A stretch of DNA of 47,268 nt. Origin: a virus (taxonomy: Duplodnaviria > Heunggongvirae > Uroviricota > Caudoviricetes). This document shows, in pieces, positions 4,647 to 41,172 of this stretch (within the stretch, counting starts at the first letter, position 1; each line of letters begins with the position of its first letter). The notes beneath the pieces are model-generated. The model made no database searches and was not told where the DNA came from. It saw only the letters and a list, made by a program, of their open reading frames with translations. The DNA is taken from the IMG/VR virus record IMGVR_UViG_3300011113_000787, positions 1 to 47,268 of that record; one strand, given 5' to 3'. The position numbers and the translations under genes were made by a program.

Positions 4647-6659
4647 ATGAATGATTTAATGGACGACGACGAAAAAATGAGTAAAAAACAAAAACAGAAC
4701 TCAGACAGTAGTACTCCTGTTTTGGATAACTTCAGTAGAGACTTAAATAAGTTAGCAGAACAAGGTAAACTCGACCCTGTAATTGGAAGAGACCGTGAGA
4801 TTCTGAGGATTGCTCAAATCTTATCTCGTAGAAAGAAAAACAATCCGATTATCATTGGTGAACCTGGTTGTGGTAAAACTGCAATTGTTGAAGGTCTTGC
4901 AATGAAGATTGTAAGTGGGGAATGTCCAAGAAATTTGATAGACAAAAGATTGGTCAATTTGGATTTGACTTCAGTTGTGGCGGGTACGAAATACCGTGGA
5001 CAATTTGAGGAAAGAATGAAAGTTATCATCGAAGAACTTCAAGCTAATCCGAATATCATTGTATTCATAGATGAGGTTCACACTTTAGTTGGTTCAGGTA
5101 ACTCCGCAGGTTCTATGGACGGTTCTAACATTTTCAAACCAGCTCTATCTCGTGGTGAGATTCAAATTATCGGAGCCACTACTTTAGATGAGTTCCGTAA
5201 AAACATTGAGAAAGACGGTGCATTAGAACGTAGATTCCAAAAAGTAATGGTTGACCCATCCTCAGTTGTTGAGACAATTCAGATTCTAAAAAATATCAGA
5301 GAGAAGTATGAATCTTATCACAAGGTTACTTACTCTGATGACGTTATTGAGACATGTGTGAAACTTGCTGACCGATATATCACTGACCGTGAGTTTCCCG
5401 ATAAGGCTTTTGATATCATGGATGAAGTTGGTGCAAGAATGCAAACTGAACTCAAGGTCCCACCTTCAATTGAAGAGTTGAAAAAGAAAGCTGCCGATAT
5501 TCGTAATCAAAAGATTGACGTAGTAAAAAAACAAAACTACGAACAAGCAGCCCAACTCAGAGACAAGGAGAAAAAACTATTGGACAAGTTGGAAACTGAG
5601 AAAAAGAAGTTTGAGGAAGAAATGATTAACAACAAAAAACAGATTTCTTTAGAAGACGTTTATGATGTTGTTTCTAACATGACCAAAATTCCTGTTAACA
5701 AAATGAGTGTTGATGATACAAAGGCACTTATAAACTTAGACAAAGAATTGATGGGTAAGGTTATTGGACAAGACGATGCGGTCAAGAAAATTGCAAAAGC
5801 AATCAAAAGAAACCGTCTCGGTATCAAAGACCCAAATCGCCCAATCGGTTCATTTGTATTCTTGGGTTCAACAGGGGTTGGTAAAACTCACTTAGCTAAA
5901 CAATTAGCTAAAGAAATGTTTGGTTCTGAAGATTCACTCATCCGTGTGGACATGTCTGAATACCAAGAGAAACACACTGTTTCCAAATTGGTGGGGGCTC
6001 CTCCAGGTTATGTGGGATATGAAGAAGGTGGTCTCCTTACAGAAAAGGTAAAGAACAAACCATATTCCGTAATTCTTTTTGACGAGGTAGAAAAAGCTCA
6101 CAAAGATGTGTTCACTGTTTTACTTCAGATTTTAGATGATGGTCACGTTACAGACAGTTTGGGACGTAAGATTAATTTCAAAAACACTTTGATTATTCTT
6201 ACTTCAAACTTGGGTGTGAAAAAACTTCAAGACTTCGGAACAGGTATTGGTTTTGGTACAAGTGCTTACGGAAACGAAGAAGCTAAAAAACAGGTACTAA
6301 TGAAAGAAATGAAAAATTTCTTTTCTCCTGAATTCATCAACCGTATTGACGACACAATTGTATTCAACAGTTTGAGTAAGGATGATATTAAGAAAATTAC
6401 TGAAATCGAACTCAAGAAGTTGATTGGTAGACTTGAGGATATGAACTACAAAGTGTCTTATGACGAGACATTGGTAGAGTACCTCTCCAAGGTTGGTTTT
6501 GACGAACTATATGGAGCTCGTCCTCTTAAAAGAGCTATTCAAGATAAAATTGAAGATTTGCTCTCCGAGGAAGTTTTAACAGGAAAACTTTTAGAAAATA
6601 AAAACTACAAGTTGAAAGTTGACGGTGAAAATGTAGTAATAGAAAAAAAGGGACGATAA
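4647..6659 (+). CDS. clpC: ClpC-type Hsp100 AAA+ ATPase lacking the N-terminal Clp-repeat domain
   Basis: Walker A motifs GEPGCGKT and GSTGVGKT, UVR-like middle coil YEQAAQLRD, GAPPGYVG pore loop, and an IGF ClpP-docking loop (GIGF). Confidence 0.88.
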   Translation: MNDLMDDDEKMSKKQKQNSDSSTPVLDNFSRDLNKLAEQGKLDPVIGRDREILRIAQILSRRKKNNPIIIGEPGCGKTAIVEGLAMKIVSGECPRNLIDKRLVNLDLTSVVAGTKYRGQFEERMKVIIEELQANPNIIVFIDEVHTLVGSGNSAGSMDGSNIFKPALSRGEIQIIGATTLDEFRKNIEKDGALERRFQKVMVDPSSVVETIQILKNIREKYESYHKVTYSDDVIETCVKLADRYITDREFPDKAFDIMDEVGARMQTELKVPPSIEELKKKAADIRNQKIDVVKKQNYEQAAQLRDKEKKLLDKLETEKKKFEEEMINNKKQISLEDVYDVVSNMTKIPVNKMSVDDTKALINLDKELMGKVIGQDDAVKKIAKAIKRNRLGIKDPNRPIGSFVFLGSTGVGKTHLAKQLAKEMFGSEDSLIRVDMSEYQEKHTVSKLVGAPPGYVGYEEGGLLTEKVKNKPYSVILFDEVEKAHKDVFTVLLQILDDGHVTDSLGRKINFKNTLIILTSNLGVKKLQDFGTGIGFGTSAYGNEEAKKQVLMKEMKNFFSPEFINRIDDTIVFNSLSKDDIKKITEIELKKLIGRLEDMNYKVSYDETLVEYLSKVGFDELYGARPLKRAIQDKIEDLLSEEVLTGKLLENKNYKLKVDGENVVIEKKGR

Positions 6660-6671
6660 GTCCCTTTTTTT
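6643..6671 (+). terminator. intrinsic terminator after clpC
   Basis: AAAAAAAGGGAC/GTCCCTTTTTTT hairpin. Confidence 0.8.
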
Positions 6672-6684
6672 TATATTTATAAGA

Positions 6685-7293
6685 ATGAGTAATCTCTCAA
6701 GACTTTTAAATCAGTTCAAAGAAAATTTTCCAAGTGAATATAAATCCAAGGTAGGTGTAATTGAAACCTTTATAAAAAATTATATTCAGAAACGAAAAGT
6801 TAATGTAAAGTTTTTAAATTCATGTTCAACGGGATTCTCAGGTGTTAGAACAAGAGACCAAGTTATTATTTGTTCACCAATGAACATGAAAACTATTGGT
6901 GATTTTTTATATACAATTTTTCACGAAATCAGGCATGACCAACAAGTCCGAGATATAAAGATGCCAAACCCCTTCACCGATTTTGATTTGGATGATTTGG
7001 AAAAATTATATGAACACTATTGGGAGATGGAATTGGATGCGGACCAATTTGCTAAAAATATGGTGGCAAAACTCGTAATCAAACTAGGTATACCTATAGA
7101 AATTGCAAAACAACAATTCAGACTTTCAAGTTATATAGAAAATTACCCCATGATGTCTCAGGGTGTTATATTTCAACTTTCACAAATTATGAAACAAGTG
7201 AAAGAAATGAAAAAATCGGGGGTCGAATATAATGATATACAAGACCACCCGATGGTTAAAAAATATATAAGTCAGTTAGAAGACTTCATTTAA
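6685..7293 (+). CDS. putative zinc metallopeptidase-like protein (HExxH)
   Basis: FHEIRH plus a downstream ELDAD acidic motif. Confidence 0.55.
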   Translation: MSNLSRLLNQFKENFPSEYKSKVGVIETFIKNYIQKRKVNVKFLNSCSTGFSGVRTRDQVIICSPMNMKTIGDFLYTIFHEIRHDQQVRDIKMPNPFTDFDLDDLEKLYEHYWEMELDADQFAKNMVAKLVIKLGIPIEIAKQQFRLSSYIENYPMMSQGVIFQLSQIMKQVKEMKKSGVEYNDIQDHPMVKKYISQLEDFI

Positions 7294-8129
7294 AAAGTAT
7301 AAGACCTTTGGACATAATCTTGTGACTTTTTATAGTGTAGATTATATCCTAATTTCTCAATCATTTTTCTTCCCATTTCAATTCCGTTAAAAACATCATC
7401 GACTACAACGTATTCGTTCGCTGTGTGATAATCGTAGTATCCGATTGAGAAATTTATACATGAAAAATCAAACTTCCCTCTCAAAGCATAAACATCAGTA
7501 TACGGATGAACCATATATTGCATGTTTTCTTTCACCATACCTTCACTCAAAACTTCGTTGCAAGATTCGAAGAATTCAGAATCACGGTCAAACAAAACTT
7601 GACCAAAACATTTCTCAGTAATCATCCAATTCTCAGGTGCGTCGAATTGTATTCCGTAACCCACGTTCTCAAAAAACTCGGGGTCTGCACTACGAGAACC
7701 GTGGCATCCAGTTTCTTCAGAAACAAAGAAAGCTGCTTTTAGATATGGTAACTCACGAAGTAGAGTCATACACGCAAATACACCACATTTATCGTCACCA
7801 CCAATACCTGTTGGTCTTCCCAAGTCGTTATAACCTTTCAGTGCCAATTTCAGTTCGTCTTGCGCATTCGGTAGTTGTTCTTCAATTACATTAATAACAT
7901 CCAAACTATGAACGGTATCTGTGTGAGAAATCACACAAGGAAAATAGAAGTCTTTTGGTAATTCACCTTGAGGTTTTTTGGTTGCATAGATATTTCTTTT
8001 ATCATCCAAATAAAATTCAATGTTGTTTGCCTCAAGCCACTTGGAGAGATATGAAATCATCATATCCTCTTTGTAAGTCTTGGTAGGAATACTCAAAACT
8101 TGTTTTAGTAATTCTATATTTTTAGTCAT
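7290..8129 (-). CDS. M20/M28-family metallopeptidase
   Basis: SHTDTVH, GGDDKCG, SEETG and YHTANE metal-ligand motifs. Confidence 0.8.
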   Translation of the reverse strand: MTKNIELLKQVLSIPTKTYKEDMMISYLSKWLEANNIEFYLDDKRNIYATKKPQGELPKDFYFPCVISHTDTVHSLDVINVIEEQLPNAQDELKLALKGYNDLGRPTGIGGDDKCGVFACMTLLRELPYLKAAFFVSEETGCHGSRSADPEFFENVGYGIQFDAPENWMITEKCFGQVLFDRDSEFFESCNEVLSEGMVKENMQYMVHPYTDVYALRGKFDFSCINFSIGYYDYHTANEYVVVDDVFNGIEMGRKMIEKLGYNLHYKKSQDYVQRSYTF

Positions 8130-10052: not shown

Positions 10053-10444
10053 GGGGAAGACATGGCATTGATTGGCGTGTGTAGGTATAAGTGGCACGTA
10101 GGAGCTGAATTAACTCCTTAAAAACTGATTTGAAACACAAACGGCAATACTTTTGCTAAAATGGCTGCTATCGGTTTAATCGCTGAAGAAGCTACAGTTG
10201 TTGCTTAATTAAGACACAACTACTCGGGTCGGTTAGGACATTAACCTAGGAACAGAAGTCCAATTTACGGGTCACAGGTCAGAGCTCGTTTAAAATAATT
10301 CTGAGACCAAGTTGTTTGTAGGTGGGGTTCTCACAAATATCAAACCTAATATTTCGGAACATTGAGAAACAATGTTGTAATAAACGTGTAGTCATTTATA
10401 GTTATCGCGAACAAGACTCGGGTTCGACCCCCGACTTCTCCACC
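10053..10444 (+). ncRNA. ssrA: tmRNA (transfer-messenger RNA)
   Basis: 5' GGGGAAG pairs with 3' CTTCTCC including G3.U70, discriminator A then CC; T-arm GGGTTCGACCCCC; internal tag ORF ending ...TVVA-TAA at 10208. Confidence 0.93.
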
Positions 10445-10479
10445 GCAGACTTTTTTGAGTTCTCGACATATTTATTAGT

Positions 10480-14570: not shown

Positions 14571-14646
14571 GCGGAAGTAGCTCATTTGGTAGAGCGATAG
14601 CCTTCCAAGCTATAGGTGGCCAGTTCGAGCCTGGTCTTCCGCTCCA
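14571..14646 (+). tRNA. tRNA-Gly(TCC), CCA encoded
   Basis: Cloverleaf; anticodon arm ATAGC-CTTCCAA-GCTAT. Confidence 0.95.
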
Positions 14647-14647
14647 T

Positions 14648-15043
14648 ATGAGCAAAGTAACAAAAAACCCCACCTTTTTCGTTGATATTGACGGAACGTT
14701 GGTTAAGTATCGAAAATTTGATGAGTTGTCTACAGCGATATTAACTCCAATTTCAGAAGTTATTGATTACGTAAACGACCAATATAATTCAGGTGCTGTG
14801 ATAATTATAACTACAGCACGTCCTGAATCTTTCAGAAACTACACAATGAGTGAGCTAGAAAAAATTGGTGTAAAGTTTCATCAACTTGTTATGGATTGTG
14901 GTAGGGGAACAAGAGTGATATTGAACGACAAGGACCCTGAACAACCTGAAATTCAAAGGGCTGTTGGAATAAATTTAGATAGGAACATGGGGTTTCAAAC
15001 CTTAGATGGTCCTCCAAGAGTTGAAAAATATGAGTCAAATTAA
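14648..15043 (+). CDS. HAD-superfamily phosphatase
   Basis: FVDIDGTL motif I, TTAR motif II, and an ND motif. Confidence 0.8.
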   Translation: MSKVTKNPTFFVDIDGTLVKYRKFDELSTAILTPISEVIDYVNDQYNSGAVIIITTARPESFRNYTMSELEKIGVKFHQLVMDCGRGTRVILNDKDPEQPEIQRAVGINLDRNMGFQTLDGPPRVEKYESN

Positions 15044-15395
15044 GGTTTCGTACAAAAGACATTTAGCAAAAACTATAAGTTATAGAATAGTTAGCACAAC
15101 AATAGGTTTCTTGGCTATGTGGTGGGTATCAGGTAGTATCAAAATTGGTGCTGCGTTTGGTGTGGTAGAGTTGTTATATAAACCATTACAATACTATATC
15201 CATGAAAGAGTTTGGTATAGATGGATAAAATATGGTCTGATTACAACATCTGAAAAGAAGAAAAAAAATTTAGGTATAACTGAAGGTAAAACCAAAGAAA
15301 TCATCAAAGAATTTCCGCAAGAACTTCCTGAAACTTTACCTCCTCCCGCACCCCAACCTCAAAAGAGAGTTTTGAATTATAGTTCAAATAGATAA
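15030..15395 (+). CDS. DUF2061-like membrane protein
   Basis: RHLAKTISYRIVST...YYIHERVW pattern. Confidence 0.7.
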   Translation: MSQIKVSYKRHLAKTISYRIVSTTIGFLAMWWVSGSIKIGAAFGVVELLYKPLQYYIHERVWYRWIKYGLITTSEKKKKNLGITEGKTKEIIKEFPQELPETLPPPAPQPQKRVLNYSSNR

Positions 15396-15418
15396 ACCGA
15401 GACATTCTCGGTTTTTTT
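15394..15418 (+). terminator. intrinsic terminator
   Basis: AAACCGAGA/TCTCGGTTT hairpin plus T-tract. Confidence 0.75.
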
Positions 15419-15443
15419 ATTTTATAAGGTATTTATAGGAGAC

Positions 15444-16757
15444 ATGAAGGAATTACAAAGGATACAAAGAATCTACGACAAAATTGATGGAAACAAAAAA
15501 TTGGTTCACGAAGTAATGGTTAGACCAATTGATGTTGCAGCGTCATATCCTAATTTAATATTCGCATCAAGAACTCAAAGAGACGAAATTAACAAGGCTT
15601 TATTAGATGATTTACAAAAAGCGGCTGAACTTACAGGTTACGATATCAACGTTAATTACGCCAAGACAGACCATGGAAAAAACACAAAGAGTGGTAACGT
15701 AAGTAGACATTACACAAATCAGGCGGTTGATATTGGTTCAATTGGCGGAAAAGTTGTAAGCCCAAGTAACAGAGATGTTGTAGACAAATATGTTGATGCT
15801 CTACTCAGTATGGGATATGCTAAGAATTCTGAAGGAGGTAACTCAAAAGCTGTTTTAACATTTGGATTTCCTGGTCATGATGACCATATCCACGTTTCAA
15901 ACAAAGAAGGTTCATCTTCTGAAGTAGACCCCAACTATAGCCCATCATCAGATAAAGAATCATCAGACAAAGATTCATCTACTGATAAAAAAGATGAAAA
16001 GTCAACCTTCGGTAGTGGAAGTAGTAAAGACTCAGACCCTGAGTTATACAAGTTAGCAGTTGGGATTGGTAAGATGATAGGTATCAACGAGTCATTTGGT
16101 AAAAATATTTCAAATAGATACGGAACTATTTCTATACCAGGTTCCTCAAACTCCGTAATTAAAAGCCCTGTCGATGGTGTTATCAACAACATGAAAAAAA
16201 TTTCTGGTTGTAAAAATCAGATAACAATTGAATCGAGTGATTTAGGTTACTTCTTTCAATATTGTGGGGTTTCTAAACCGAGAGTAAAAGATGGAGATAC
16301 AGTTTCAGAAGGACAAGTTATAGGAATTATGGACGGAGGAGATACTGCAGAAGTATTGATGTTGAACCGTTCTTATCACAGAGAAAACCTAAATCAGAGA
16401 GAATTCGAAAAAACATATTCTGAAAAAAAATCAACAAAAAAGAAAAAAGAATACACTCCTGATTATGATGGTGAAGTAGAGAAAAAATCTGATACTAGAA
16501 GTTATGCTGACCCTGCGTTAGCTGCACTTATAACCTTACCATTCGGTATATTCAAAAACAGATACGATAAAAAAACAGGTGAGTTAAAACAGAAGAGATG
16601 GGCTGAAACAGGAGAAAAGAAACAAACCGACCCAATTGTTATAAACGCAATAAAAGCCCCATTTAAAAAAGCTGCAAAATTTTTCCGTAAGGAAAAGAAT
16701 GAAGAAAACGACAAATTAAAAGAGGATATTCAAAGAATTAAAAGACTAATAAAATAA
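15444..16757 (+). CDS. probable virion-associated peptidoglycan peptidase (M15/LAS-type domain plus degenerate M23-like domain)
   Basis: SRHYTNQAVD (H-x6-D) and HDDHIH (HxH); later KSPVDGVI...VKDGDTVSEGQVIG. Confidence 0.6.
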   Translation: MKELQRIQRIYDKIDGNKKLVHEVMVRPIDVAASYPNLIFASRTQRDEINKALLDDLQKAAELTGYDINVNYAKTDHGKNTKSGNVSRHYTNQAVDIGSIGGKVVSPSNRDVVDKYVDALLSMGYAKNSEGGNSKAVLTFGFPGHDDHIHVSNKEGSSSEVDPNYSPSSDKESSDKDSSTDKKDEKSTFGSGSSKDSDPELYKLAVGIGKMIGINESFGKNISNRYGTISIPGSSNSVIKSPVDGVINNMKKISGCKNQITIESSDLGYFFQYCGVSKPRVKDGDTVSEGQVIGIMDGGDTAEVLMLNRSYHRENLNQREFEKTYSEKKSTKKKKEYTPDYDGEVEKKSDTRSYADPALAALITLPFGIFKNRYDKKTGELKQKRWAETGEKKQTDPIVINAIKAPFKKAAKFFRKEKNEENDKLKEDIQRIKRLIK

Positions 16758-16783
16758 AAAAACCCATCGAAAGATGGGTTTTT
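16758..16783. terminator. bidirectional intrinsic terminator
   Basis: AAAAACCCATC-GAAA-GATGGGTTTTT between convergent genes. Confidence 0.85.
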
Positions 16784-16805
16784 AGTTTCGTAAGAAAAAG
16801 TAATA

Positions 16806-16979
16806 TTATTTAACTTCTTCTACCTTAACAGCAGTAGTGTCTACAACAACAGCCGCAGAATCCACTTTAAGTGAATCTACTACAACAGCAGAAGAATCTG
16901 ATTTAACTTCAGTTGAGGTACCTTTACCGCCGCAAGCCGTCAATGCTACGATTGATAACAATGCAAAGATTTTTTTCAT
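16806..16979 (-). CDS. 57-aa lipoprotein MKKIFALLSIVALTAC-GGKGTSTEVKSDSSAVVVDSLKVDSAAVVVDTTAVKVEEVK
   Basis: Manual translation (below the ORF-track cutoff); signal peptide with lipobox LTAC. Confidence 0.85.
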   Translation of the reverse strand: MKKIFALLSIVALTACGGKGTSTEVKSDSSAVVVDSLKVDSAAVVVDTTAVKVEEVK

Positions 16980-17074
16980 TTTTTTCTTTTTTTTGGTTAA
17001 TGTTTAATAACTATTCAAGACTATAAATATAGTACAACTTTTCTAAATCGTCAACTAGTAGGTTAAAAAAAGTG

Positions 17075-17159
17075 CGGAGAGTGCTGGATTCGAACCAGCG
17101 GGTCAGTTACCCGACCACGGTTTAGCAAACCGCTCCTTTAACCACTCAGGCAACTCTCC
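17075..17159 (-). tRNA. tRNA-Ser(GCT)
   Basis: Cloverleaf with long variable arm; GCGGT-TTGCTAA-ACCGT. Confidence 0.93.
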
Positions 17160-17164
17160 TCGTG

Positions 17165-17238
17165 TGTGAACGGTGGGATTCGAACCCACGACAACTAGCG
17201 CCACAAGCTAGTGCTCTACCAACTAAGCTACGTCCACC
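17165..17238 (-). tRNA. tRNA-His(GTG), G-1 present, discriminator A
   Basis: CTAGC-TTGTGGC-GCTAG. Confidence 0.92.
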
Positions 17239-17245
17239 ATGTTTG

Positions 17246-17317
17246 TTGCGATAGGTGGATTTGAACCACCGACAACTTGGATATGAATCAAGTGCTCTAC
17301 CCCTGAGCTATATCGCA
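17246..17317 (-). tRNA. tRNA with CAT anticodon (probable elongator Met)
   Basis: Loop TTCATAT; A31-C39 mismatch; no initiator features. Confidence 0.8.
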
Positions 17318-17323
17318 TTCATG

Positions 17324-17395
17324 AAGTCCTATAGGGACTCGAACCCCAACTCTTTTTGTCCGTAGCAAAATGTTTTTCCATTAAACTATAGGACC
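17324..17395 (-). tRNA. tRNA-Arg(ACG)
   Basis: TTTTG-CTACGGA-CAAAA. Confidence 0.9.
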
Positions 17396-17398
17396 CTG

Positions 17399-17469
17399 TT
17401 GTCGCACAAGGATTCGAACCTTGAAAAACAGAACCAAAATCTGTTGTGTTACCGTTACACCATACGACA
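17399..17469 (-). tRNA. tRNA-Gln(TTG)
   Basis: ACAGA-TTTTGGT-TCTGT. Confidence 0.92.
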
Positions 17470-17551
17470 GTATGGGACAGACCTAAGGAGACGTATTATT
17501 CTCTTCATTATCCTTGTACTTTAACACCATGGGAAGCGTGTGTCTGTCTTG

Positions 17552-17625
17552 TGGACCCCCACGGGCTCGAACCGTGGACCTAATGATTATGAGTCATTTG
17601 CTCTGACCTACTGAGCTAGGGGTCC
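17552..17625 (-). tRNA. tRNA with CAT anticodon (probable Ile2, lysidine type)
   Basis: AATGA-CTCATAA-TCATT; overall resemblance to ileX-type tRNAs. Confidence 0.8.
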
Positions 17626-17631
17626 AAAATG

Positions 17632-17713
17632 TGGGAGTAGCTGGACTCGAACCAACGAACTCGAAAGAGGGAAGATTTACAGTCTTCTGCCATTGCCACT
17701 AGGCGATACTCCC
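17632..17713 (-). tRNA. tRNA-Tyr(GTA)
   Basis: GAAGA-CTGTAAA-TCTTC with long variable arm. Confidence 0.93.
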
Positions 17714-17719
17714 AAATTG

Positions 17720-17792
17720 CACGGGTGGTAGGACTCGAACCTACAACTCCTAGTTTTGGAGACTAGTACTCTACCAATTGAGCTACACCCAT
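17720..17792 (-). tRNA. tRNA-Trp(CCA)
   Basis: CTAGT-CTCCAAA-ACTAG. Confidence 0.93.
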
Positions 17793-17797
17793 GTTTA

Positions 17798-18211
17798 TTA
17801 TTTCAAAAGCCAAGATGAGGATTGAATTTTATCACCCAAACCGTCGACCAATTTGATACCTAATTCATCACAGATTGGTTTTTCAGGTATAGTGTCGTTA
17901 TTTTGGTCACCTCCGTTTGCAAAGAACAACTCTACGTTTTCTTCAACCTCAGAGGCAATCATTCTCAACGTCTCACGAACCGTTCTGTCTTTATCGATAG
18001 ATAGTATGGTTTTATCTACCATCTTTAAACTATCGATAATTACCAATCTTTCGTCCTCATCTTGGAACTTTTTACTTCCTTTCAACTCACGTTGAAAATC
18101 GTTATTCACAATCACATAGAGTTTGTCTCCATGTTCTTTTGATTTGATAAAGTATTCAATATGTCCTTTATGGACAGGATTGAAATATCCACTTACGATT
18201 ACAACTTTCAT
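17798..18211 (-). CDS. cytidylyltransferase-like (HIGH-motif) nucleotidyltransferase
   Basis: VSGYFNPVHKGH and FANGGD motifs; start at MKVV (TAATG overlap). Confidence 0.85.
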   Translation of the reverse strand: MKVVIVSGYFNPVHKGHIEYFIKSKEHGDKLYVIVNNDFQRELKGSKKFQDEDERLVIIDSLKMVDKTILSIDKDRTVRETLRMIASEVEENVELFFANGGDQNNDTIPEKPICDELGIKLVDGLGDKIQSSSWLLK

Positions 18212-18765
18212 TATCCTTGTTTTTTTGTCCACTTACTTTTATCCAATAGGTCATCCCAATCTTCATACCCTTGTTCACGTGCATATTCATCGTTTTTTAT
18301 TCTTTGATACTTTTTTACGTTTTCAGGGTCTCTCATAGCTTCAGAGTTTTCAAAACCTAAAGATTTTGCACACTCCTCTTCACACCATCCATGAGAACCT
18401 ATTTCGATGTTTATTGGTAGGTCAGTTTCCAAAGATTCGATAAAATCTTCAAATTGACTTGCCGCTTCATAAGGCATTGTATAGATTCCCTCAGACACTT
18501 GATATCCGCTATCACTTTCTCTGTCGAATATTTCAATCCTACCCATTCTATACTTCTCACCCATCAAACTGAATACACCATATCCAACAGTAGAATAACT
18601 GAATCTACCTGGTGTACTAACACCTTGCATATCAACACATCTCGGATTTGCCTCCATGTAATGTGCCATATGGTCAACTAGCATTTCGTCAGTAAGTTCT
18701 TTTCCTTCTTGTTTTCTTCGGATGTTACTCAGGAACCATAACAAATCCGCTCTATTGATTTTCAT
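18211..18765 (-). CDS. hypothetical protein
   Basis: 184-aa ORF with TAAATTTG box at 18770-18777. Confidence 0.75.
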   Translation of the reverse strand: MKINRADLLWFLSNIRRKQEGKELTDEMLVDHMAHYMEANPRCVDMQGVSTPGRFSYSTVGYGVFSLMGEKYRMGRIEIFDRESDSGYQVSEGIYTMPYEAASQFEDFIESLETDLPINIEIGSHGWCEEECAKSLGFENSEAMRDPENVKKYQRIKNDEYAREQGYEDWDDLLDKSKWTKKQG

Positions 18766-18781
18766 ATCACAAATTTACGCT

Positions 18782-19069
18782 TTATATATTGAAATTACTA
18801 AACTTTAATCCCCACATTAAGGAAATCATCCCCATCTGAGTTTCAGCATACTTCTTATTCATTTTGAGTTCTTTGATGAGGTATTTCTGACCCCAATCTT
18901 TCCACTCATCGTTCTGTTCAACAGTCATAGTCCATTGAGTATACCAATCATCTTTACGGTCTTTAACATCATCATATGTAACTGAATGTCCTGCAATTTC
19001 AAACATTTTATTAATCATATCAACGACCATTTTTTCTCTCTTCTGTTCTAATGATAGTCTTTTTTTCAT
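18782..19069 (-). CDS. hypothetical protein
   Basis: ORF with ATGA coupling to the upstream HAD gene. Confidence 0.7.
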   Translation of the reverse strand: MKKRLSLEQKREKMVVDMINKMFEIAGHSVTYDDVKDRKDDWYTQWTMTVEQNDEWKDWGQKYLIKELKMNKKYAETQMGMISLMWGLKFSNFNI

Positions 19070-19590
19070 CGTTCTAATTTTTTTATACATTCATCAATTT
19101 TGTCTCTAAGTCTTCCACCTTGACCCCAATCTCCATCTACTTGTACATGTCTCCACTTTGGTACTCTTGGTTTCATCCACTTATATTGTCCGTCAAGTTT
19201 CATATCATCAATTGAAATCCAATTTGAGATTTTATTATCTTTCACCCACTTTGTGATTTCAGCCGCTCTTTCCCACTCAATTGACGGTCTACTTAATTTA
19301 TTCCATAAGTCCTGATGGGTGGTGATATCAACAATTGGAGCAGTTACACCGTAGTATTGGAAGATTCTTTTCAATTGAATGAAACTGAAATGTTTTCTCC
19401 AATCCGAACTCACAACGAGACTTGCATTGGTTTCATCACAAATCTTTTGTAGTGCTTGGCAATCCTCCTCAATCCAAGGGTATGGAATTGTGAAGGTCTT
19501 GGAAGCCTCATTGAGCGTAACTCTACCGTCACCCCACGTTCCCCATGCAAGTGGTCCATCTACATCAATAAAGATAATTTTACGTCTCAT
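19066..19590 (-). CDS. HAD domain protein resembling the 'Swiss army knife' RNA-repair HAD (HAD_SAK-like)
   Basis: IFIDVDGPL, VVSSDWR and ISIDD motifs; embedded in the tRNA array. Confidence 0.7.
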   Translation of the reverse strand: MRRKIIFIDVDGPLAWGTWGDGRVTLNEASKTFTIPYPWIEEDCQALQKICDETNASLVVSSDWRKHFSFIQLKRIFQYYGVTAPIVDITTHQDLWNKLSRPSIEWERAAEITKWVKDNKISNWISIDDMKLDGQYKWMKPRVPKWRHVQVDGDWGQGGRLRDKIDECIKKLER

Positions 19591-19604
19591 AACATTTTAT
19601 TTTG

Positions 19605-19678
19605 TTGGAATGGGCGGGCTCGAACCGCCGACATCTACCGTATCAGGATAGCGCTCTGACCAACTGAGCTACATTCCA
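19605..19678 (-). tRNA. tRNA-Ile(GAT)
   Basis: CTATC-CTGATAC-GGTAG. Confidence 0.92.
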
Positions 19679-19684
19679 TTATTG

Positions 19685-19756
19685 AGGTCAGTACAGGAAT
19701 CGAACCTGTGTAAATAGTTTTGCAGACTACCGCCTAAACCACTCGACCAACTGACC
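19685..19756 (-). tRNA. tRNA-Cys(GCA)
   Basis: GTAGT-CTGCAAA-ACTAT. Confidence 0.93.
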
Positions 19757-19762
19757 TTATTG

Positions 19763-19834
19763 TGACCCCTGATGGATTCGAACCATCGACTTCTTCATTA
19801 AAAGTGAAGAGCTCTTCCACTGAGCTAAGAGGTC
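19763..19834 (-). tRNA. tRNA-Lys(TTT)
   Basis: CTTCA-CTTTTAA-TGAAG. Confidence 0.93.
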
Positions 19835-19839
19835 AGGTG

Positions 19840-19912
19840 TGGTAACGGTCAGAATCGAACTGACGACACCTTGCTCTTCAGGCAAGTGCTCTACCAACTG
19901 AGCTACGTCACC
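19840..19912 (-). tRNA. tRNA-Phe(GAA)
   Basis: CTTGC-CTGAAGA-GCAAG. Confidence 0.93.
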
Positions 19913-19983
19913 AAGTTAAAATTGAGGTCGCCCACACTTGTTCGGGGCGGAGTCTTACGACAACCTTCAACATCCCCTCAATT

Positions 19984-20199
19984 TTAATAAACTTCAATAT
20001 CTTCCAAAGTTACATCTTCTCCTTGAGTATGCCTATAAACTGTATCAAAAAATTGTCCTAACAATTTATAGTCTTCATCAATCATTTTACAAAAATCAAA
20101 TGCTGGTATTGTACCATTGATTTGACCTTGTACTACCTTATCATACTTGGCATCTGGTTTATATTCAAAAACCACATTACCTCTAAAAACATATTTCAT
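19984..20199 (-). CDS. hypothetical protein
   Basis: 71-aa ORF coupled to 20196..20603. Confidence 0.65.
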   Translation of the reverse strand: MKYVFRGNVVFEYKPDAKYDKVVQGQINGTIPAFDFCKMIDEDYKLLGQFFDTVYRHTQGEDVTLEDIEVY

Positions 20200-20603
20200 A
20201 TATTACAATTTTTTTTGACTTTAACAATGTCCCACTCGTAGTCACCGTTTCTGTCGAGTTCGAAATAATAATGACCACCAGTGAATTTTGCCCTTAGTCT
20301 AAACATCCAAAAAATGGTCTTTTTCAACTCATAAATTATGGATTCATTACCCGACCAACCCATGGTATGGAGTTCAAATAGTCCATCTTCTTCTTTGTAA
20401 GCAAAGTCCCCATAATTCCAAAGAGACTTAACAAATTCAACCAACTCGGACTGATTATCCGCACCGAAGAACTTTCCTATGGAAACCTCATCGTTTTCCA
20501 CATTATGACTCCAATTTTTAATATAATTCAAAGCCTCTTCGGTGGGATAACCATCTTCATCAAACAATTCCTCAGGGAATGGGTAATCTAATATTTTTTC
20601 CAT
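20196..20603 (-). CDS. hypothetical protein
   Basis: 135-aa ORF. Confidence 0.75.
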   Translation of the reverse strand: MEKILDYPFPEELFDEDGYPTEEALNYIKNWSHNVENDEVSIGKFFGADNQSELVEFVKSLWNYGDFAYKEEDGLFELHTMGWSGNESIIYELKKTIFWMFRLRAKFTGGHYYFELDRNGDYEWDIVKVKKNCNI

Positions 20604-20619
20604 AACTATTTTTTTTTTG

Positions 20620-20692
20620 TAGTCCCTGTAGGAATCGAACCTACGACACCTTGCATGTAAGGCAAGTGCTCTTCCAACTGAGCTAAAGGACT
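20620..20692 (-). tRNA. tRNA-Val(TAC)
   Basis: CTTGC-CTTACAT-GCAAG. Confidence 0.93.
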
Positions 20693-20695
20693 GTG

Positions 20696-20785
20696 AATGA
20701 TGGCACCATCAACTCTCTTGATGCGTTTACGGCAGGGATTAGTAACCTTATCCTTTCGGAATTCGTCCTCTCTTATGCCATCATT
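20696..20785 (-). ncRNA. candidate 90-nt structured RNA between tRNA-Glu and tRNA-Val
   Basis: Perfect 10-bp terminal helix AATGATGGCA/TGCCATCATT plus internal hairpins. Confidence 0.5.
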
Positions 20786-20787
20786 TG

Positions 20788-20859
20788 TAGCCCCGCACGG
20801 ACTCGAACCGAAATCTCCACCGTGAAAGGGTGGCGTCCTAACCTTTAGACGACGGGGCC
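20788..20859 (-). tRNA. tRNA-Glu(TTC)
   Basis: CCACC-CTTTCAC-GGTGG. Confidence 0.93.
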
Positions 20860-20911
20860 AAGAATTACAAATTTACAACCAATATTTCAAAGAACCAAAA
20901 ACACCTAAAAT

Positions 20912-20950
20912 AAAAAAACCCCGAACTTCATTTCTGTAGTCCGAGGTTTG
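20912..20950 (-). terminator. intrinsic terminator upstream of tRNA-Glu
   Basis: AAACCUCGGACU/AGUUCGGGGUUU hairpin plus U-tract. Confidence 0.75.
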
Positions 20951-20982
20951 TATATATAACTCTTCAGGAATTATAGGCTATC

Positions 20983-21063
20983 TCATGAGACTACAGCGCG
21001 TGTCTTAAACCAACAAATCTCTTGTTGTTTACTATAGACCATATGACGCACTATTGTTCTCAT
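20983..21063 (-). CDS. 26-aa micro-ORF MRTIVRHMVYSKQQEICWFKTRAVVS
   Basis: Manual translation; TAATTATA box 6 nt upstream and a terminator downstream. Confidence 0.45.
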   Translation of the reverse strand: MRTIVRHMVYSKQQEICWFKTRAVVS

Positions 21064-21207
21064 TGTTATTATAATTACTACAATTATAGTAAAAGTTTTT
21101 AAAAAACAAATATTTTATTTTTTTAAAATAGTTCTACCTAATCTCCATCCTTCAGGTATTTTATCGCCCTTATAAATTTTTTTAGATTCGATTTCATTAG
21201 TTCAAGG

Positions 21208-21288
21208 TACCCCAAGAGAGACTCGAACTCTCACGACCGAAGTCATTGGTTCCTAAGACCAACGCGGCTACCGTTACGCCATCGGGGT
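21208..21288 (-). tRNA. tRNA-Leu(TAG)
   Basis: TTGGT-CTTAGGA-ACCAA with long variable arm. Confidence 0.92.
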
Positions 21289-21292
21289 AAGT

Positions 21293-21383: not shown

Positions 21384-21386
21384 TTG

Positions 21387-24270: not shown

Positions 24271-24780
24271 AAATTTATTTTTATATTCCAAGACCTTATC
24301 AAATATTTCATTTTTGTATCTTGAATGAATATATTGATGATGTGTTGGACACAAAGGTATTAAATTTTCAGGAGAATTATTATTGCGATTTTCATCAAAA
24401 TGATGAACAGTAACAATTTTTTCTTCTCCACAAACTATACATTTCTTTTCATGGTGTTCAAAACATGTTGACCTATATGAATGGTCTCTCCAGTTAGGAT
24501 TATTTTCACCACTCCTGAAATGGGTATTTGAACAAGAATAAGAACAAGTTGTTTTTTCCAACTTTCCCCCATTTCTTGTTTCGAACTCTTTACCGCAAAC
24601 GGGACAAATTTTTTTAATAATTTGATATTTAACATCTCTTTTTCTCAGATGCAATATATTCAAATTATTTTTTTCAACATATTCAAAAAACTTCTTACGG
24701 GACCTTCCGTTATCGTACCCATAACTTTTTTTTATTGCTTCCGCAATAGTTTGTGAATTTTTAATAAAATTTTCTATCAT
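24250..24780 (-). mobile_element. HNH endonuclease (probable homing endonuclease) inside the tRNA array
   Basis: CPVCG and CSYSCS Zn motifs; CIVCG..VHHFD...N..ENLIPLCPTHH. Confidence 0.82.
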
Positions 24781-24844
24781 ATTAATAAATATTCACAATT
24801 GTCGGTAAAATAAATTTTGGGTCAAAACTTTTTTTACAGACTTG

Positions 24845-24917
24845 TAGAGTAGACAGGACTCGAACCTACACGCACTTGCTCCCAAAGCAAGGGACCTACC
24901 TATTGGTCAACTACTCT
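24845..24917 (-). tRNA. tRNA-Pro(TGG)
   Basis: CTTGC-TTTGGGA-GCAAG. Confidence 0.9.
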
Positions 24918-31414: not shown

Positions 31415-32092
31415 ATGGATATCGGAAAAGAATTTACATCTTATTACACAAAACATTTAGGAAAAGGTTCTTTGGACCTTCATTATTTCGGACAACAAAT
31501 TCAGTCGTCCATGACCCCTTATATCTTGGAGGAAAGAGAAATGAGAGCAACTCAGATTGATATCTTTTCTCGTTTGATGAGAGATAGGATTATATGGGTA
31601 GCGGGAGGTGTCGACGACAGGATGTCCACAATAGTTCAGGCTCAACTTATGTTTTTGGATAATGCCGAAAAAACCGACATTACCATGCACATCGATTCAC
31701 CAGGTGGTTCTGTTAAATCAGGTCTATCTATGGTCGATGTTATGAACTACATCTCATGTGATATCATCACAGTGAATACAGGTATGGCGGCATCTATGGG
31801 GTCGATTCTATTGGGTGCAGGAACTAAAGGTAAAAGGAGCTCATTGAGATTTTCAAGAACCATGTTGCATCAATCATCAGGGGGTTTTGGTGGGAATATT
31901 CAAGACGCCGAAATTAGTATGAAGGAATGGCACAAACTGAATGATATCTTATTCCAACTTTTGGGTGAATATTGTGGTAAAGACCCTGAACAAGTTAAAC
32001 AAGATGCGACAAGGGATTTGTGGTTAGATTCTGAACAAGCATTAGAGTACGGAATTATTGATACTATCGTAAAAACAAAAAAGAAGGGTTAA
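31415..32092 (+). CDS. clpP: ATP-dependent Clp protease proteolytic subunit
   Basis: DIFSRLMRDRII, IDSPGGSV, GMAASMG (Ser), MLHQ (His), RDLW (Asp); TAATTTTG box at 31390-31397. Confidence 0.95.
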   Translation: MDIGKEFTSYYTKHLGKGSLDLHYFGQQIQSSMTPYILEEREMRATQIDIFSRLMRDRIIWVAGGVDDRMSTIVQAQLMFLDNAEKTDITMHIDSPGGSVKSGLSMVDVMNYISCDIITVNTGMAASMGSILLGAGTKGKRSSLRFSRTMLHQSSGGFGGNIQDAEISMKEWHKLNDILFQLLGEYCGKDPEQVKQDATRDLWLDSEQALEYGIIDTIVKTKKKG

Positions 32093-40594: not shown

Positions 40595-40598
40595 AAAA

Positions 40599-40802
40599 AT
40601 GGACAACAGACTCACTGAAATATTTGAAAACACGATTCCTCATAGTTCTTTTTTAAGTGAAAGAGCAATTATGAGTTGTATGTACCAATCCTATAATTTA
40701 GGTATTGAAGACGTATTGGAATGGTTGAAGAAAAATGAGCACTTGTCCGACAACATAAATTATTTAATCGAAGAATTTCAAAATCAAAGAAATCCAAGAT
40801 GA
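40599..40802 (+). CDS. hypothetical protein
   Basis: 67 aa; ATGA coupling to the next gene. Confidence 0.7.
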   Translation: MDNRLTEIFENTIPHSSFLSERAIMSCMYQSYNLGIEDVLEWLKKNEHLSDNINYLIEEFQNQRNPR

Positions 40803-40963
40803 GCATCACAAATGAGGAAATAATTGATGAAATATTACATGAAGCCCATAAATATGGACTTCGTAAGGAGGTAATTGATACCGCAAAAGAAATTCTATTA
40901 TCTAATCCAAAATTAGACAGAGTTTCTGCATATGAACAAGCATTTCAAGAATGGGTAAAATGA
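40799..40963 (+). CDS. 54-aa hypothetical protein MSITNEEIIDEILHEAHKYG...
   Basis: Manual translation; ATGA overlaps at both ends. Confidence 0.7.
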   Translation: MSITNEEIIDEILHEAHKYGLRKEVIDTAKEILLSNPKLDRVSAYEQAFQEWVK

Positions 40964-41172
40964 AAGAATTAGATTTACATGGAATATTTCATAGAGATGT
41001 AAGGGACAAAGTTGAAAATTTTGTTCTCTTACACTCTACTGAACTTCCTGTAAGGATTATCACAGGTGACTCACTTAGAATGAGGAATTTGACTATAAAC
41101 ATTCTTAATAAACATAAATTTTCCTACGACCTACCAGCACATAACCCTGGTGAAATTATAGTATTATCATGA
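40960..41172 (+). CDS. stand-alone Smr (small MutS-related) domain protein
   Basis: MKELDLHG...VRIITG motifs; start at 40960 via ATGA overlap. Confidence 0.75.
   Translation: MKELDLHGIFHRDVRDKVENFVLLHSTELPVRIITGDSLRMRNLTINILNKHKFSYDLPAHNPGEIIVLS

What the first reader, a model, noticed from the sequence alone, without database searches (positions are those of the whole stretch)
4647..41172. Possible phage-encoded ribosome rescue and quality-control chain: Smr nuclease, tmRNA with its own tag, ClpC/ClpP, full tRNA set and RNA-repair HAD
Seen: all these components lie within 47 kb. Known: Smr-domain nucleases (E. coli SmrB) cut mRNA at collided ribosomes to create tmRNA substrates, tmRNA-tagged peptides are degraded by Clp proteases, and host defences often cleave tRNA and stall ribosomes. 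Inference: the phage carries a near-complete rescue pathway (SmpB is not seen in this window), possibly with a private tag/protease pair that counters translation-targeting defences.
Basis: partly seen in the sequence, partly recalled or inferred. Interest (0 to 1): 0.78.

Follow-up and report, generated by a model that had tools for sequence, protein, structure and literature searches.

The report
Phage tmRNA, headless ClpC, ClpP
This piece of a giant lake-water phage really carries its own ribosome-rescue RNA with an unusually long tag, a ClpC/ClpP protease and a full tRNA set. The Smr nuclease and the "RNA-repair" HAD gene come and go independently among relatives, so a single phage-run rescue chain is not shown.

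Summary
All the listed components are present at the stated coordinates.

**What holds up**
- The window is the first 47 kb of a 111-kb fragment (about 37% complete) of a roughly 320-kb phage family, probably of Bacteroidota.
- The tmRNA is genuine.
- The tag is 21-22 codons in all 59 distinct relatives and shows a coding signature. Bacteroidota tags are 8-10 residues ending in LAA or MAA.
- The ClpC lacks the N-domain but keeps its ATPase motifs and an invariant ClpP-docking G[IVL]GF loop.
- ClpP is a true ClpP with an intact catalytic triad.

**What does not hold up**
- Only ClpC and tmRNA are core: the tmRNA lies 2-5.7 kb downstream of ClpC in 63 of 63 informative loci.
- ClpP, SmpB, the Smr-like gene and HAD_SAK_2 vary independently among three complete relatives.
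- The 73-residue Smr-like protein has an Smr fold and the DLHG motif, but no SmrB-type N-terminal extension. It is confined to the closest clade and sits among nucleotide-metabolism genes.
- No RNA ligase accompanies the HAD in this record or in the closest complete relative.

**Verdict:** This scan has already reported the ClpC-tmRNA-ClpP set on other genomes of this family.

The parts
3486..3728 (-). KTSC-domain protein (80 aa), a conserved neighbour of ClpC
   Evidence: PF13619 KTSC at E 3e-18. Found in 76 of 80 related loci at the same offset from ClpC. Function unknown.
4080..4475 (-). Hsp20 / alpha-crystallin small heat-shock protein, divergent from ClpC
   Evidence: PF00011 at E 4.6e-12. 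Accessory: detected in 20 of 80 related loci.
4647..6659 (+). ClpC-type class I Hsp100 unfoldase without the N-domain (670 aa)
   Evidence: Pfam domains. It aligns without large gaps to S. aureus ClpC residues 146-799. Both Walker A/B pairs, the KYRG and GYVG pore loops and the UVR/M-domain are present. The GIGF ClpP-docking loop is invariant as G[IVL]GF in all 77 relatives whose ORF reaches the loop. The Flavobacterium homologue is 848 aa, so about 180 N-terminal residues are missing here.
6685..7293 (+). 202-aa protein with an HEIRH (HExxH) motif, 25 nt downstream of ClpC
   Evidence: Motif seen in the translation. Only a weak DUF3920 hit. Found in 24 of 80 related loci. A possible small metallopeptidase; not tested.
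7290..8129 (-). M20-like peptidase or deacylase (279 aa), part of the conserved block between ClpC and tmRNA
   Evidence: Weak Peptidase_M20 and NCBIfam M20-family hits, all far below cut-off. Found in 75 of 80 related loci at the same offset.
10053..10445 (+). One-piece tmRNA (ssrA)
   Evidence: Rfam RF00023 at 75.6 bits, full-length match to positions 1-374; ARAGORN agrees. The acceptor stem has a G3.U70 pair and the 3' end reads ACCG. Found 2.0-5.7 kb downstream of ClpC in 63 of 63 loci with enough flank.
10143..10208 (+). tmRNA tag reading frame: GNTFAKMAAIGLIAEEATVVA plus stop
   Evidence: The Rfam alignment places the resume codon at GGC. The frame is 21-22 codons in 59 of 59 distinct relatives. 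Codon-position entropy is 0.91/0.39/1.22 in codons 1-13. An invariant A sits at -4 and a pyrimidine at -5.
14571..24917 (.). 24 tRNA genes for all 20 amino acids (one on +, 23 on -), interleaved with small ORFs and an HNH endonuclease
   Evidence: ARAGORN and Rfam RF00005 at 51-72 bits each.
19066..19590 (-). HAD_SAK_2 phosphatase-family protein (174 aa) inside the tRNA array
   Evidence: PF18143 at 72.7 bits against a cut-off of 27.5. Present in 2 of 3 complete relatives and one partial one, always in the tRNA/tmRNA region. No ligase partner found.
31415..32092 (+). ClpP proteolytic subunit (225 aa)
   Evidence: PF00574 at 193.9 bits. NCBIfam ClpP models score 190-230 bits, against 64-74 bits for ClpP-related prohead-protease models. 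It aligns with solved bacterial ClpPs at E 2e-46, and the Ser (AASMG), His (HQ) and Asp (RD) triad residues are aligned.
40951..41172 (+). Minimal stand-alone Smr-domain protein (73 aa); its stop overlaps the thyA start
   Evidence: Pfam Smr is below cut-off. There are 143 homologues of 57-80 aa with ELDLHG invariant. The AF2 model has pLDDT 93. The top structural matches are Smr domains: 2zqe Z 11.0 with rmsd 1.5 over 70 residues, 4och Z 10.7, YdaL Z 9.1, SmrB 7qgr Z 7.4.

Best explanation
The window is part of the translation and proteostasis accessory arm of a roughly 320-kb phage, probably of Bacteroidota. It holds several working host-derived modules that share a theme but are only loosely coupled.

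**Proposed mechanism**
1. The tmRNA is charged with alanine (G3.U70). Together with host SmpB, or a phage SmpB where one exists, it frees ribosomes stalled on broken mRNAs during infection.
2. It appends a phage-family-specific 21-22-residue tag.
3. Tagged fragments are then degraded by whichever Clp machine reads the hydrophobic, Ala-terminal tag. That could be host ClpXP or the phage's N-domain-less ClpC docked on phage or host ClpP. Degradation recycles ribosomes and amino acids.
4. The 24 tRNAs independently keep translation of the AT-rich phage genes going.

The Smr-like nuclease and the HAD_SAK_2 phosphatase are separate accessory genes, not steps of this route.

**Shown here:** the identity and intactness of each part, the ClpC-tmRNA synteny, the phage-specific tag, and the independent gain and loss of ClpP, SmpB, Smr and HAD.

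**Inferred:** every functional step, in particular who reads the tag.
For: **tmRNA and tag**
- The tmRNA is complete and conserved.
- The tag frame is under peptide-level constraint. It is 21-22 codons in 59/59 relatives, and second codon positions are the least variable.
- The resume-codon context is conserved.
- Tags from a sample of 33 Bacteroidota genomes are 8-10 residues in 32 of them, ending LAA or MAA in 31.

**ClpC and ClpP**
- ClpC has all its ATPase and pore motifs and an invariant G[IVL]GF loop.
- ClpP has an intact triad and scores as ClpP, not as a prohead protease.

**Synteny and co-occurrence**
- ClpC-tmRNA synteny holds in 63/63 loci.
- In two relatives SmpB lies 0.5-0.9 kb from the tmRNA, within about 4 kb of ClpC.
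- ClpP, SmpB, Smr and HAD vary independently.

**Smr context**
- The Smr-like gene sits among nucleotide-metabolism genes.

**Precedent**
- M. tuberculosis ClpC1 with ClpP1P2 degrades GFP-ssrA (PMC4416901).
- ClpC1's N-domain is dispensable for the ClpS-mediated regulation of its unfolding of an SsrA-tagged substrate (PMC6274998).
- Phage tmRNAs, and tmRNA plus SmpB in huge phages, are already known (PMC9004378, PMC7162821).
Against: - Nothing here shows expression, charging, tagging or degradation.
- Synteny inside one conserved phage family can be inheritance alone.
- The long, fully conserved tag is more than a simple C-terminal degron needs. That hints at a dedicated reader that this loose model does not name.
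- ClpC is kept, with its docking loop, in phages that lack a phage ClpP. So its partner and substrates are open.
- SmpB is not in this record or in the closest complete relative. Rescue would therefore depend on host SmpB accepting a divergent tmRNA.
Confidence: 0.5

Rival explanations
1. **Private tag and protease pair.** The long phage-specific tag is a degron, or adaptor-binding peptide, read specifically by the N-domain-less phage ClpC. ClpC then feeds tagged chains to phage or host ClpP. This would give the phage its own tag-and-destroy route, separate from host ClpXP/SspB. The Smr-like gene and the HAD are not involved.
For: - ClpC and tmRNA are the two invariant, syntenic members of the set.
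- The whole 21-22-residue tag is conserved as a peptide, not just its C-terminus.
- The tag differs from all sampled Bacteroidota tags.
- ClpC has lost the N-domain that normally takes adaptors and phospho-arginine substrates.
- ClpC-type unfoldases can act on ssrA tags (PMC4416901, PMC6274998).
Against: - There is no direct evidence of recognition.
- The tag C-terminus (mostly VA; AA in 7 of 59) does not track the presence or absence of phage ClpP.
- From my own knowledge, LVA-type endings still work as ClpXP degrons in E. coli reporter systems, so host proteases probably read the tag too.
- ClpC and tmRNA are on separate transcription units, with two opposite-strand genes between them.
Confidence: 0.2
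2. **Unrelated modules.** ClpC, with Hsp20 and the nearby peptidases, is a general unfoldase or protease for host-protein turnover or phage assembly. The tmRNA is simply one more translation gene next to the tRNA array. Their proximity is inherited gene order with no shared pathway.
For: - Hsp20 lies divergently next to ClpC, and an HExxH protein and an M20-like peptidase flank it.
- ClpC persists in phages without a phage ClpP.
- ClpC and tmRNA are separated by opposite-strand genes.
- Accessory genes in this region are gained and lost freely, and homing endonucleases are inserted beside the tmRNA and inside the tRNA array.
Against: - 63/63 synteny is kept across relatives down to about 68% ClpC identity, while the genes between and around the pair turn over.
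- The docking loop is invariant, which points to protease rather than pure chaperone work.
- SmpB has inserted beside the tmRNA within the same block in some relatives.
Confidence: 0.25
3. **The first reader's full chain.** The Smr nuclease cuts mRNA at collided ribosomes, tmRNA rescues and tags, phage ClpCP degrades, and the tRNAs and an RNA-repair HAD counter tRNA-cleaving defences. All of this is one coordinated phage pathway.
For: - All parts are present within 37 kb.
- The Smr-like protein keeps the DxH motif (ELDLHG invariant) that is catalytic in SmrB-type nucleases, a point taken from my own knowledge.
- MutS2 and SmrB Smr domains bind collided ribosomes (PMC13622287).
Against: - The Smr-like gene is in 1 of 3 complete relatives and 1 of 35 further contigs.
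- It has no N-terminal extension; the Smr domain starts at about residue 5 of 73.
- SmrB proper is restricted mainly to Gammaproteobacteria (PMC13622287).
- Its neighbours are thyA or 7-deazaguanine and dCTP-deaminase genes.
- HAD_SAK_2 has no ligase partner here or in the closest complete genome.
- ClpP and SmpB are also dispensable in some complete relatives.
Confidence: 0.05

Closest known systems
Bacterial trans-translation with ssrA-tag proteolysis (tmRNA-SmpB; ClpXP with SspB, ClpAP, Lon, FtsH; ClpC1P1P2 in M. tuberculosis)
   Same: - One-piece tmRNA with an alanine-identity acceptor stem.
- A resume codon with a conserved upstream A.
- A tag ending in hydrophobic residues plus Ala.
- A Clp unfoldase with a ClpP-docking loop, and a true ClpP.
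   Different: - It is encoded by a phage.
- The tag is 21-22 residues against 8-10 in Bacteroidota, and ends mostly in VA rather than LAA or MAA.
- The unfoldase is a ClpC without an N-domain, not ClpX or ClpA.
- SmpB is missing from this record and from the closest complete relative.
Phage-encoded tmRNAs (2.3% of isolate phage genomes, PMC9004378; tmRNA plus SmpB in huge phages, PMC7162821)
   Same: A complete ssrA gene in a large phage next to tRNA genes. SmpB is present in some relatives.
   Different: Here the tmRNA is a core gene of a large family. It is always a few kb from a truncated ClpC, and its tag is conserved across the family. I found no paper describing this combination.
ClpC of Firmicutes and Bacteroidota (S. 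aureus 6em8, B. subtilis 3j3s; Flavobacterium homologue of 848 aa)
   Same: 56-61% identity to Bacteroidota ClpC, and a full-length alignment to S. aureus ClpC residues 146-799. D1, M-domain/UVR, D2 and the docking loop are all present.
   Different: It lacks the roughly 145-180-residue N-domain that binds MecA or McsB adaptors and phospho-arginine. No twin-UVR mini-protein or other UVR protein is present in this 111-kb record.
E. coli SmrB (collided-ribosome mRNA endonuclease) and other Smr domains (MutS2, N4BP2, YdaL/SmrA)
   Same: Smr fold and a DLHG motif.
   Different: - It is only 73 residues, with no N-terminal extension.
- It is closer in structure to MutS2 and N4BP2 (Z 9-11) than to SmrB (Z 7.4).
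- It scores below the Pfam cut-off.
- It sits in a nucleotide-metabolism gene context.

Membership tests
tmRNA (Rfam RF00023) | Covariance-model score above the gathering threshold over the full model | tested here: met
   75.6 bits against 47, model positions 1-374.
tmRNA (Rfam RF00023) | tRNA-Ala-like acceptor stem with a G3.U70 pair | tested here: met
   The 5' GGGGAAG pairs with the 3' CUUCUCC, giving G3.U. The discriminator is A and the 3' end reads CCG rather than CCA.
tmRNA (Rfam RF00023) | Internal tag reading frame with a resume codon and stop, conserved as a peptide | tested here: met
   21-22 codons in 59/59 relatives, with a coding-type entropy pattern and an invariant A at -4.
tmRNA (Rfam RF00023) | SmpB partner encoded alongside | tested here: not met
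   No SmpB in the 111-kb record or in the closest complete genome G001. It is present in G002, G003, G036 and G037. Host SmpB could serve, and this record is incomplete.
ClpC (class I Hsp100 unfoldase of ClpCP) | Two AAA+ modules with Walker A/B motifs and pore loops | tested here: met
   GEPGCGKT / FIDE and GSTGVGKT / LFDE, plus the KYRG and GYVG loops, in the alignment to 6em8.
ClpC (class I Hsp100 unfoldase of ClpCP) | Short M-domain with a UVR-like coiled coil | tested here: met
   PF02151 at residues 279-311. The alignment through the S. aureus M-domain is contiguous.
ClpC (class I Hsp100 unfoldase of ClpCP) | ClpP-docking [ILV]GF loop in D2 | tested here: met
   GIGF here; G[IVL]GF in all 77 relatives whose ORF reaches the loop.
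ClpC (class I Hsp100 unfoldase of ClpCP) | N-terminal Clp_N repeat domain | tested here: not met
   No Clp_N hit. The ORF starts at the equivalent of S. aureus residue 146. The cellular homologue is 848 aa.
ClpP (PF00574, peptidase S14) | Family score above cut-off and an aligned Ser-His-Asp triad | tested here: met
   193.9 bits against 20.2. The AASMG Ser, HQ His and RD Asp align with solved ClpPs.
ClpP (PF00574, peptidase S14) | Not a ClpP-related prohead protease | tested here: met
   NCBIfam ClpP models score 190-230 bits, against 64-74 bits for head-maturation models. The PHROG head-protease hit is weaker than the Pfam ClpP hit.
Smr domain (PF01713) | Pfam gathering score | tested here: not met
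   17.3 bits against 25.7. Smr is the best hit for 27 of 27 family members; the best E-value among them is 2.7e-5.
Smr domain (PF01713) | Smr fold (beta-alpha-beta-alpha-beta) and the DxH motif | tested here: met
   AF2 pLDDT 93. 2zqe gives Z 11.0 with rmsd 1.5 over 70 residues, and the six best matches are all Smr domains. ELDLHG is invariant.
SmrB (collided-ribosome endonuclease) | N-terminal extension ahead of the Smr domain | tested here: not met
   The domain starts at about residue 5 of 73. In 7qgr the aligned SmrB Smr domain spans residues 95-172.
SmrB (collided-ribosome endonuclease) | Binding to collided ribosomes and mRNA cleavage | not testable with these tools
   Needs biochemistry.
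HAD_SAK_2 (PF18143, 'Swiss Army Knife' RNA-repair HAD) | Pfam score above cut-off | tested here: met
   72.7 bits against 27.5.
HAD_SAK_2 (PF18143, 'Swiss Army Knife' RNA-repair HAD) | Association with RNA ligase or kinase repair partners | tested here: not met
   No RtcB, Rnl2-type or Rnl1-type ligase in this record or in G001. Rnl1 occurs only in G002 and G003, and G003 lacks the HAD. No kinase was searched for.

The most novel reading that the evidence does not exclude
The 21-22-residue tag, conserved throughout this roughly 320-kb phage family and unlike any sampled Bacteroidota tag, is a private degron or adaptor-binding peptide. It would be read by the N-domain-less phage ClpC. The phage would then run its own tag-and-destroy route, on phage or host ClpP, for the products of ribosomes stalled during infection, independent of the host's ClpXP/SspB system.
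Probability: 0.2. Interest if true: 0.75.

Novelty: new variant of a known kind. Interest (0 to 1): 0.45.

Why it matters
- Phage tmRNAs are known but their purpose is not.
- Here a tmRNA with a long tag found only in this phage family is a fixed neighbour of a stripped-down ClpC across hundreds of related contigs. That gives a concrete, testable pair: does the phage unfoldase read the phage tag?
- If it does, it would be the first virus-owned protein-tagging and degradation route in bacteria, and a source of orthogonal degron/protease pairs.
- If it does not, the region is an ordinary collection of host-derived translation and proteostasis genes.
- The wider chain (Smr nuclease, RNA-repair HAD) adds nothing that survives comparison with relatives.

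Tried and rejected
- **ARAGORN's short tag (AEEATVVA).** Rejected. The Rfam alignment, ARAGORN's own calls in relatives and the codon-position pattern all support the 21-codon frame starting at GGC 10143.
- **A first frame calculation.** It was off by two bases and was redone.
- **Sequence searches of the Smr-like protein or its profile against PDB chains.** They gave only spurious matches to repeated ETV6 fusion constructs. PHROGs and NCBIfam gave nothing.
- **megablast of 20 kb against isolate phages.** It found only tRNA-sized matches.
- **RtcB and Rnl2-type ligase.** Not found in this record or in three complete relatives.
- **A twin-UVR partner protein.** Earlier notes report one beside ClpC in other genomes. 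It is not in this record; the only UVR match is inside ClpC.
- **orf110 (3685-4017).** No recognisable motif.
- **The sigma-70-type scan around the tmRNA.** Uninformative. The RTATTTATT box is only mildly enriched: 8 matches against 3.75 expected.
- **Complex prediction.** Not run. ClpC with ClpP is a textbook pair that would pass by likeness, and the tag is shorter than the 30-residue minimum.
- The second structure job and the representative-protein search would not have changed the verdict.

Full report
**What the DNA is.** The window is the first 47,268 bases of a 111,268-base linear IMG/VR virus record with 34% G+C, estimated 37% complete. Relatives found through the ClpC-like protein include three records rated complete. 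Two are 321 kb with direct terminal repeats and one is 309 kb, so this is a fragment of a roughly 320-kb phage. A phage DNA polymerase family (phrog_1268, E 1.5e-111) lies elsewhere on the record. The 80 best cellular matches to ClpC are nearly all titled as Bacteroidota, at 56-61% identity. That agrees with earlier notes of this scan proposing a freshwater Bacteroidota host. I did not test the host directly.

**Checking the observation.** Every listed component is present.
- The 670-aa ORF at 4647-6659 has AAA_2, AAA_lid_9, ClpB_D2-small and UVR domains. It aligns end to end with S. aureus ClpC residues 146-799 at E 7e-226.
- The tmRNA at 10053-10445 scores 75.6 bits on Rfam RF00023, against a gathering score of 47, over the whole model.
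- Twenty-four tRNA genes between 14571 and 24917 cover all 20 amino acids.
- A 174-aa HAD_SAK_2 protein (19066-19590) scores 72.7 bits against a cut-off of 27.5.
- ClpP (31415-32092) scores 193.9 bits on PF00574.
- The Smr candidate is a 73-aa ORF (40951-41172) that reaches only 17.3 bits on Pfam Smr, against a cut-off of 25.7.
- SmpB is absent from the whole record.

**The tmRNA and its tag.** ARAGORN proposes the tag AEEATVVA. The Rfam alignment places the resume codon 39 nt earlier, ten bases after pseudoknot 1, at GGC 10143. I collected the tmRNAs of the related loci with nhmmer and aligned 59 distinct sequences.
- From the aligned GGC the frame is 21 codons in 47 sequences and 22 codons in 12.
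- The peptide pattern is G-N-[TV]-[FLI]-x-K-[ML]-x-x-x-G-L-x-[RK]...V-x-A.
- In codons 1-13, the part ARAGORN leaves out, column entropy is 0.91, 0.39 and 1.22 for codon positions 1, 2 and 3. That is the signature of a translated frame.
- The base at -4 is A in 59/59, -5 is a pyrimidine in 59/59, and the first base of the resume codon is G in 59/59. From my own knowledge this corresponds to the U85-A86 context needed for frame setting in E. coli tmRNA.
- The acceptor stem carries G3.U70. The 3' end here reads CCG, whereas most relatives encode CCA.

For comparison I took tmRNAs from 33 Bacteroidota genomes. Their tags are 8-10 residues in 32 of them. The phage tags end in VA in 35 of 59, AA in 7, TA in 6 and GA in 4. 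The tag is therefore the family's own. It keeps the Bacteroidota-like G/D-N start and a hydrophobic, Ala-terminal end.

**ClpC and ClpP.**
- The ClpC-like protein keeps both Walker A/B pairs, the KYRG and GYVG pore loops and the M-domain. It has no N-domain: there is no Clp_N hit, and the Flavobacterium homologue is 848 aa.
- Its D2 loop reads GIGF, the ClpP-docking tripeptide. The motif is G[IVL]GF in all 77 relatives whose ORF reaches the loop.
- ClpP aligns with solved bacterial ClpPs at E 2e-46, with the Ser, His and Asp of the triad in place.
- ClpP scores 190-230 bits on NCBIfam ClpP models, against 64-74 bits on ClpP-related head-maturation models. It is a true ClpP, not a prohead protease.

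- *ClpC and tmRNA do.* The tmRNA lies 1,972-5,655 bases (median 2,668) downstream of ClpC in 63 of 63 related loci with enough flank. A tmRNA is found in all five long relatives searched whole.
- *The conserved block* is NTase-like gene, KTSC gene, ClpC, M20-like peptidase, a 346-aa ORF, then tmRNA. Hsp20 (20 of 80 loci) and the HExxH ORF after ClpC (24 of 80) are accessory.
- *The rest do not travel together.* The table shows the three complete relatives and this record.

| Genome | ClpC | tmRNA | ClpP | SmpB | Smr-like | HAD_SAK_2 | Rnl1 |
|---|---|---|---|---|---|---|---|
| This record (111 kb, about 37% complete) | + | + | + | - | + | + | - |
| G001 (321 kb, the closest complete relative) | + | + | + | - | + | + | - |
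| G002 (309 kb) | + | + | + | + | - | two copies | + |
| G003 (321 kb) | + | + | - | + | - | - | + |

- *ClpP* is present in 16 of 35 further contigs. It is missing from three of them that extend 33-47 kb beyond ClpC, far enough to cover its usual position.
- *The docking loop* of ClpC is unchanged in those ClpP-less phages. ClpC can presumably use host ClpP, which weakens the idea of an exclusive phage pair.
- *Tag endings* do not sort by ClpP presence.
- *The Smr-like gene* is in only 1 of the 35 further contigs, the 98%-identical one.
- *SmpB* is in 2 of the 35. In both it lies 0.5-0.9 kb from the tmRNA and about 3.5 kb from ClpC. So the block can also hold the tmRNA's protein partner.

**The Smr-like protein.**
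- It has 143 homologues in metagenomes, almost all 67-80 residues (one of 57). ELDLHG, R-I-I-x-G-x-S and H-N-x-G-E-x-I are invariant in the 27-sequence alignment.
- Smr is the best Pfam hit for all 27 sampled members; the best E-value is only 2.7e-5.
- An AlphaFold model built on the alignment has pLDDT 93 and a beta-alpha-beta-alpha-beta topology.
- Foldseek's top hits are Smr domains.
- VIA-align gives Z 11.0 for T. thermophilus MutS2 Smr (rmsd 1.5 Å over 70 residues), 10.7 for D. radiodurans MutS2, 9.7 for human N4BP2, 9.1 for E. coli YdaL and 7.4 for SmrB on the disome.

It is therefore a real, minimal Smr domain with the DxH motif. It has none of the sequence that precedes the Smr domain in SmrB, where the domain spans residues 95-172.

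Its gene context is also wrong for the proposed role. The stop overlaps the start of thyA here and in G001. In a 173-kb contig a homologue sits between QueC and GTP cyclohydrolase I, near PTPS and dCTP deaminase. SmrB itself is reported to be restricted mainly to Gammaproteobacteria (PMC13622287). A DNA- or nucleotide-linked role is at least as likely as a ribosomal one.

**The HAD and the tRNAs.**
- The HAD_SAK_2 assignment is sound, and the gene sits inside the tRNA or tmRNA region wherever it occurs.
- Neither RtcB nor Rnl1- or Rnl2-type ligases occur in this record or in G001. "RNA repair" rests on the family name alone.
- The small HAD at 14648-15043 and the adenylyltransferase at 17798-18232 look more like heptose-nucleotide enzymes.
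- Large tRNA sets in big phages are well known.

**Comparison with what is known.**
- Phage tmRNAs occur in about 2.3% of isolate phage genomes (PMC9004378).
- tmRNA plus SmpB has been reported in huge phages (PMC7162821).
- M. tuberculosis ClpC1-ClpP1P2 degrades GFP-ssrA (PMC4416901). ClpC1 unfolds an SsrA-tagged substrate, and its N-domain is dispensable for the ClpS-mediated regulation of that activity (PMC6274998). A headless ClpC acting on a tmRNA tag is therefore plausible.
- I found no paper describing a phage family with a fixed tmRNA plus truncated ClpC pair.
- This scan has already reported the same set on other genomes of this family, each time as plausible but unproven. My results agree with those reports and were reached independently from this window.

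**Verdict.**
- *Solid core:* a phage-family-specific tmRNA tag and a conserved N-domain-less, ClpP-docking ClpC, with a true ClpP in this lineage.
- *Open and testable:* the link between tag and ClpC. I put about 0.2 on a private pair.
- *Contradicted by co-occurrence and context:* the added links to the Smr nuclease and the RNA-repair HAD, and the idea of a near-complete self-contained pathway.

Noticed in passing
window 6685-7293 (+): The 202-aa ORF 25 nt after ClpC carries an HEIRH (HExxH) zinc-peptidase-like motif. It is present in only 24 of 80 related loci. It could be a small metallopeptidase working beside ClpC.
   Followed up: partly
window 10480-11127 (+); 24250-24780 (-); 26391-26879 (+): A GIY-YIG endonuclease sits directly after the tmRNA. 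One weak HNH-like ORF lies inside the tRNA array and a clear HNH endonuclease lies just beyond it. These are probably free-standing homing endonucleases. The GIY-YIG gene occupies the place where two relatives (G036, G037) carry SmpB.
   Followed up: partly
window 14648-15043 (+) and 17798-18232 (-): A small HAD (best PHROG family annotated 'phosphoheptose isomerase', weak PNKP-HAD hit) and an RfaE-domain-II-like adenylyltransferase lie beside or within the tRNA array. Together they hint at a sugar-nucleotide (ADP-heptose-like) pathway rather than RNA repair.
   Followed up: no
window 27489-29159 and 29164-30759 (+): Two tandem carbamoyltransferase genes (Carbam_trans_N plus Carbam_trans_C) lie upstream of ClpP. 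The substrate is unknown.
   Followed up: no
window 39021-40181 (-): A 386-aa, very acidic protein with repeated CxxC...CxxC zinc-ribbon-like units (for example CDECG...CMECG and CSECG...CTECG). It has no family match.
   Followed up: no
window 3486-3728 (-): A KTSC-domain protein (the domain is otherwise found at the C-terminus of some lysyl-tRNA synthetases). It is one of the best conserved neighbours of ClpC, present in 76 of 80 loci at about 72% identity.
   Followed up: partly
window 10014-10022 and 10468-10476 (+): The ATATTTATT box lies 31 nt before the tmRNA 5' end and 4 nt before the ATG of the GIY-YIG gene. Enrichment in the window is only mild (8 matches against 3.75 expected).
   Followed up: partly
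window 10442-10445: This tmRNA ends in CCG, whereas most relatives encode CCA. It would need 3'-end repair by a CCA-adding enzyme. A conserved nucleotidyltransferase-like gene (2709-3464, weak NTP_transf_2 hit) lies in the same block.
   Followed up: no
window 36390-36986 (+) and 37399-37998 (-): A DUF6445 protein and a 2OG-Fe(II) oxygenase sit side by side. The function is unknown.
   Followed up: no
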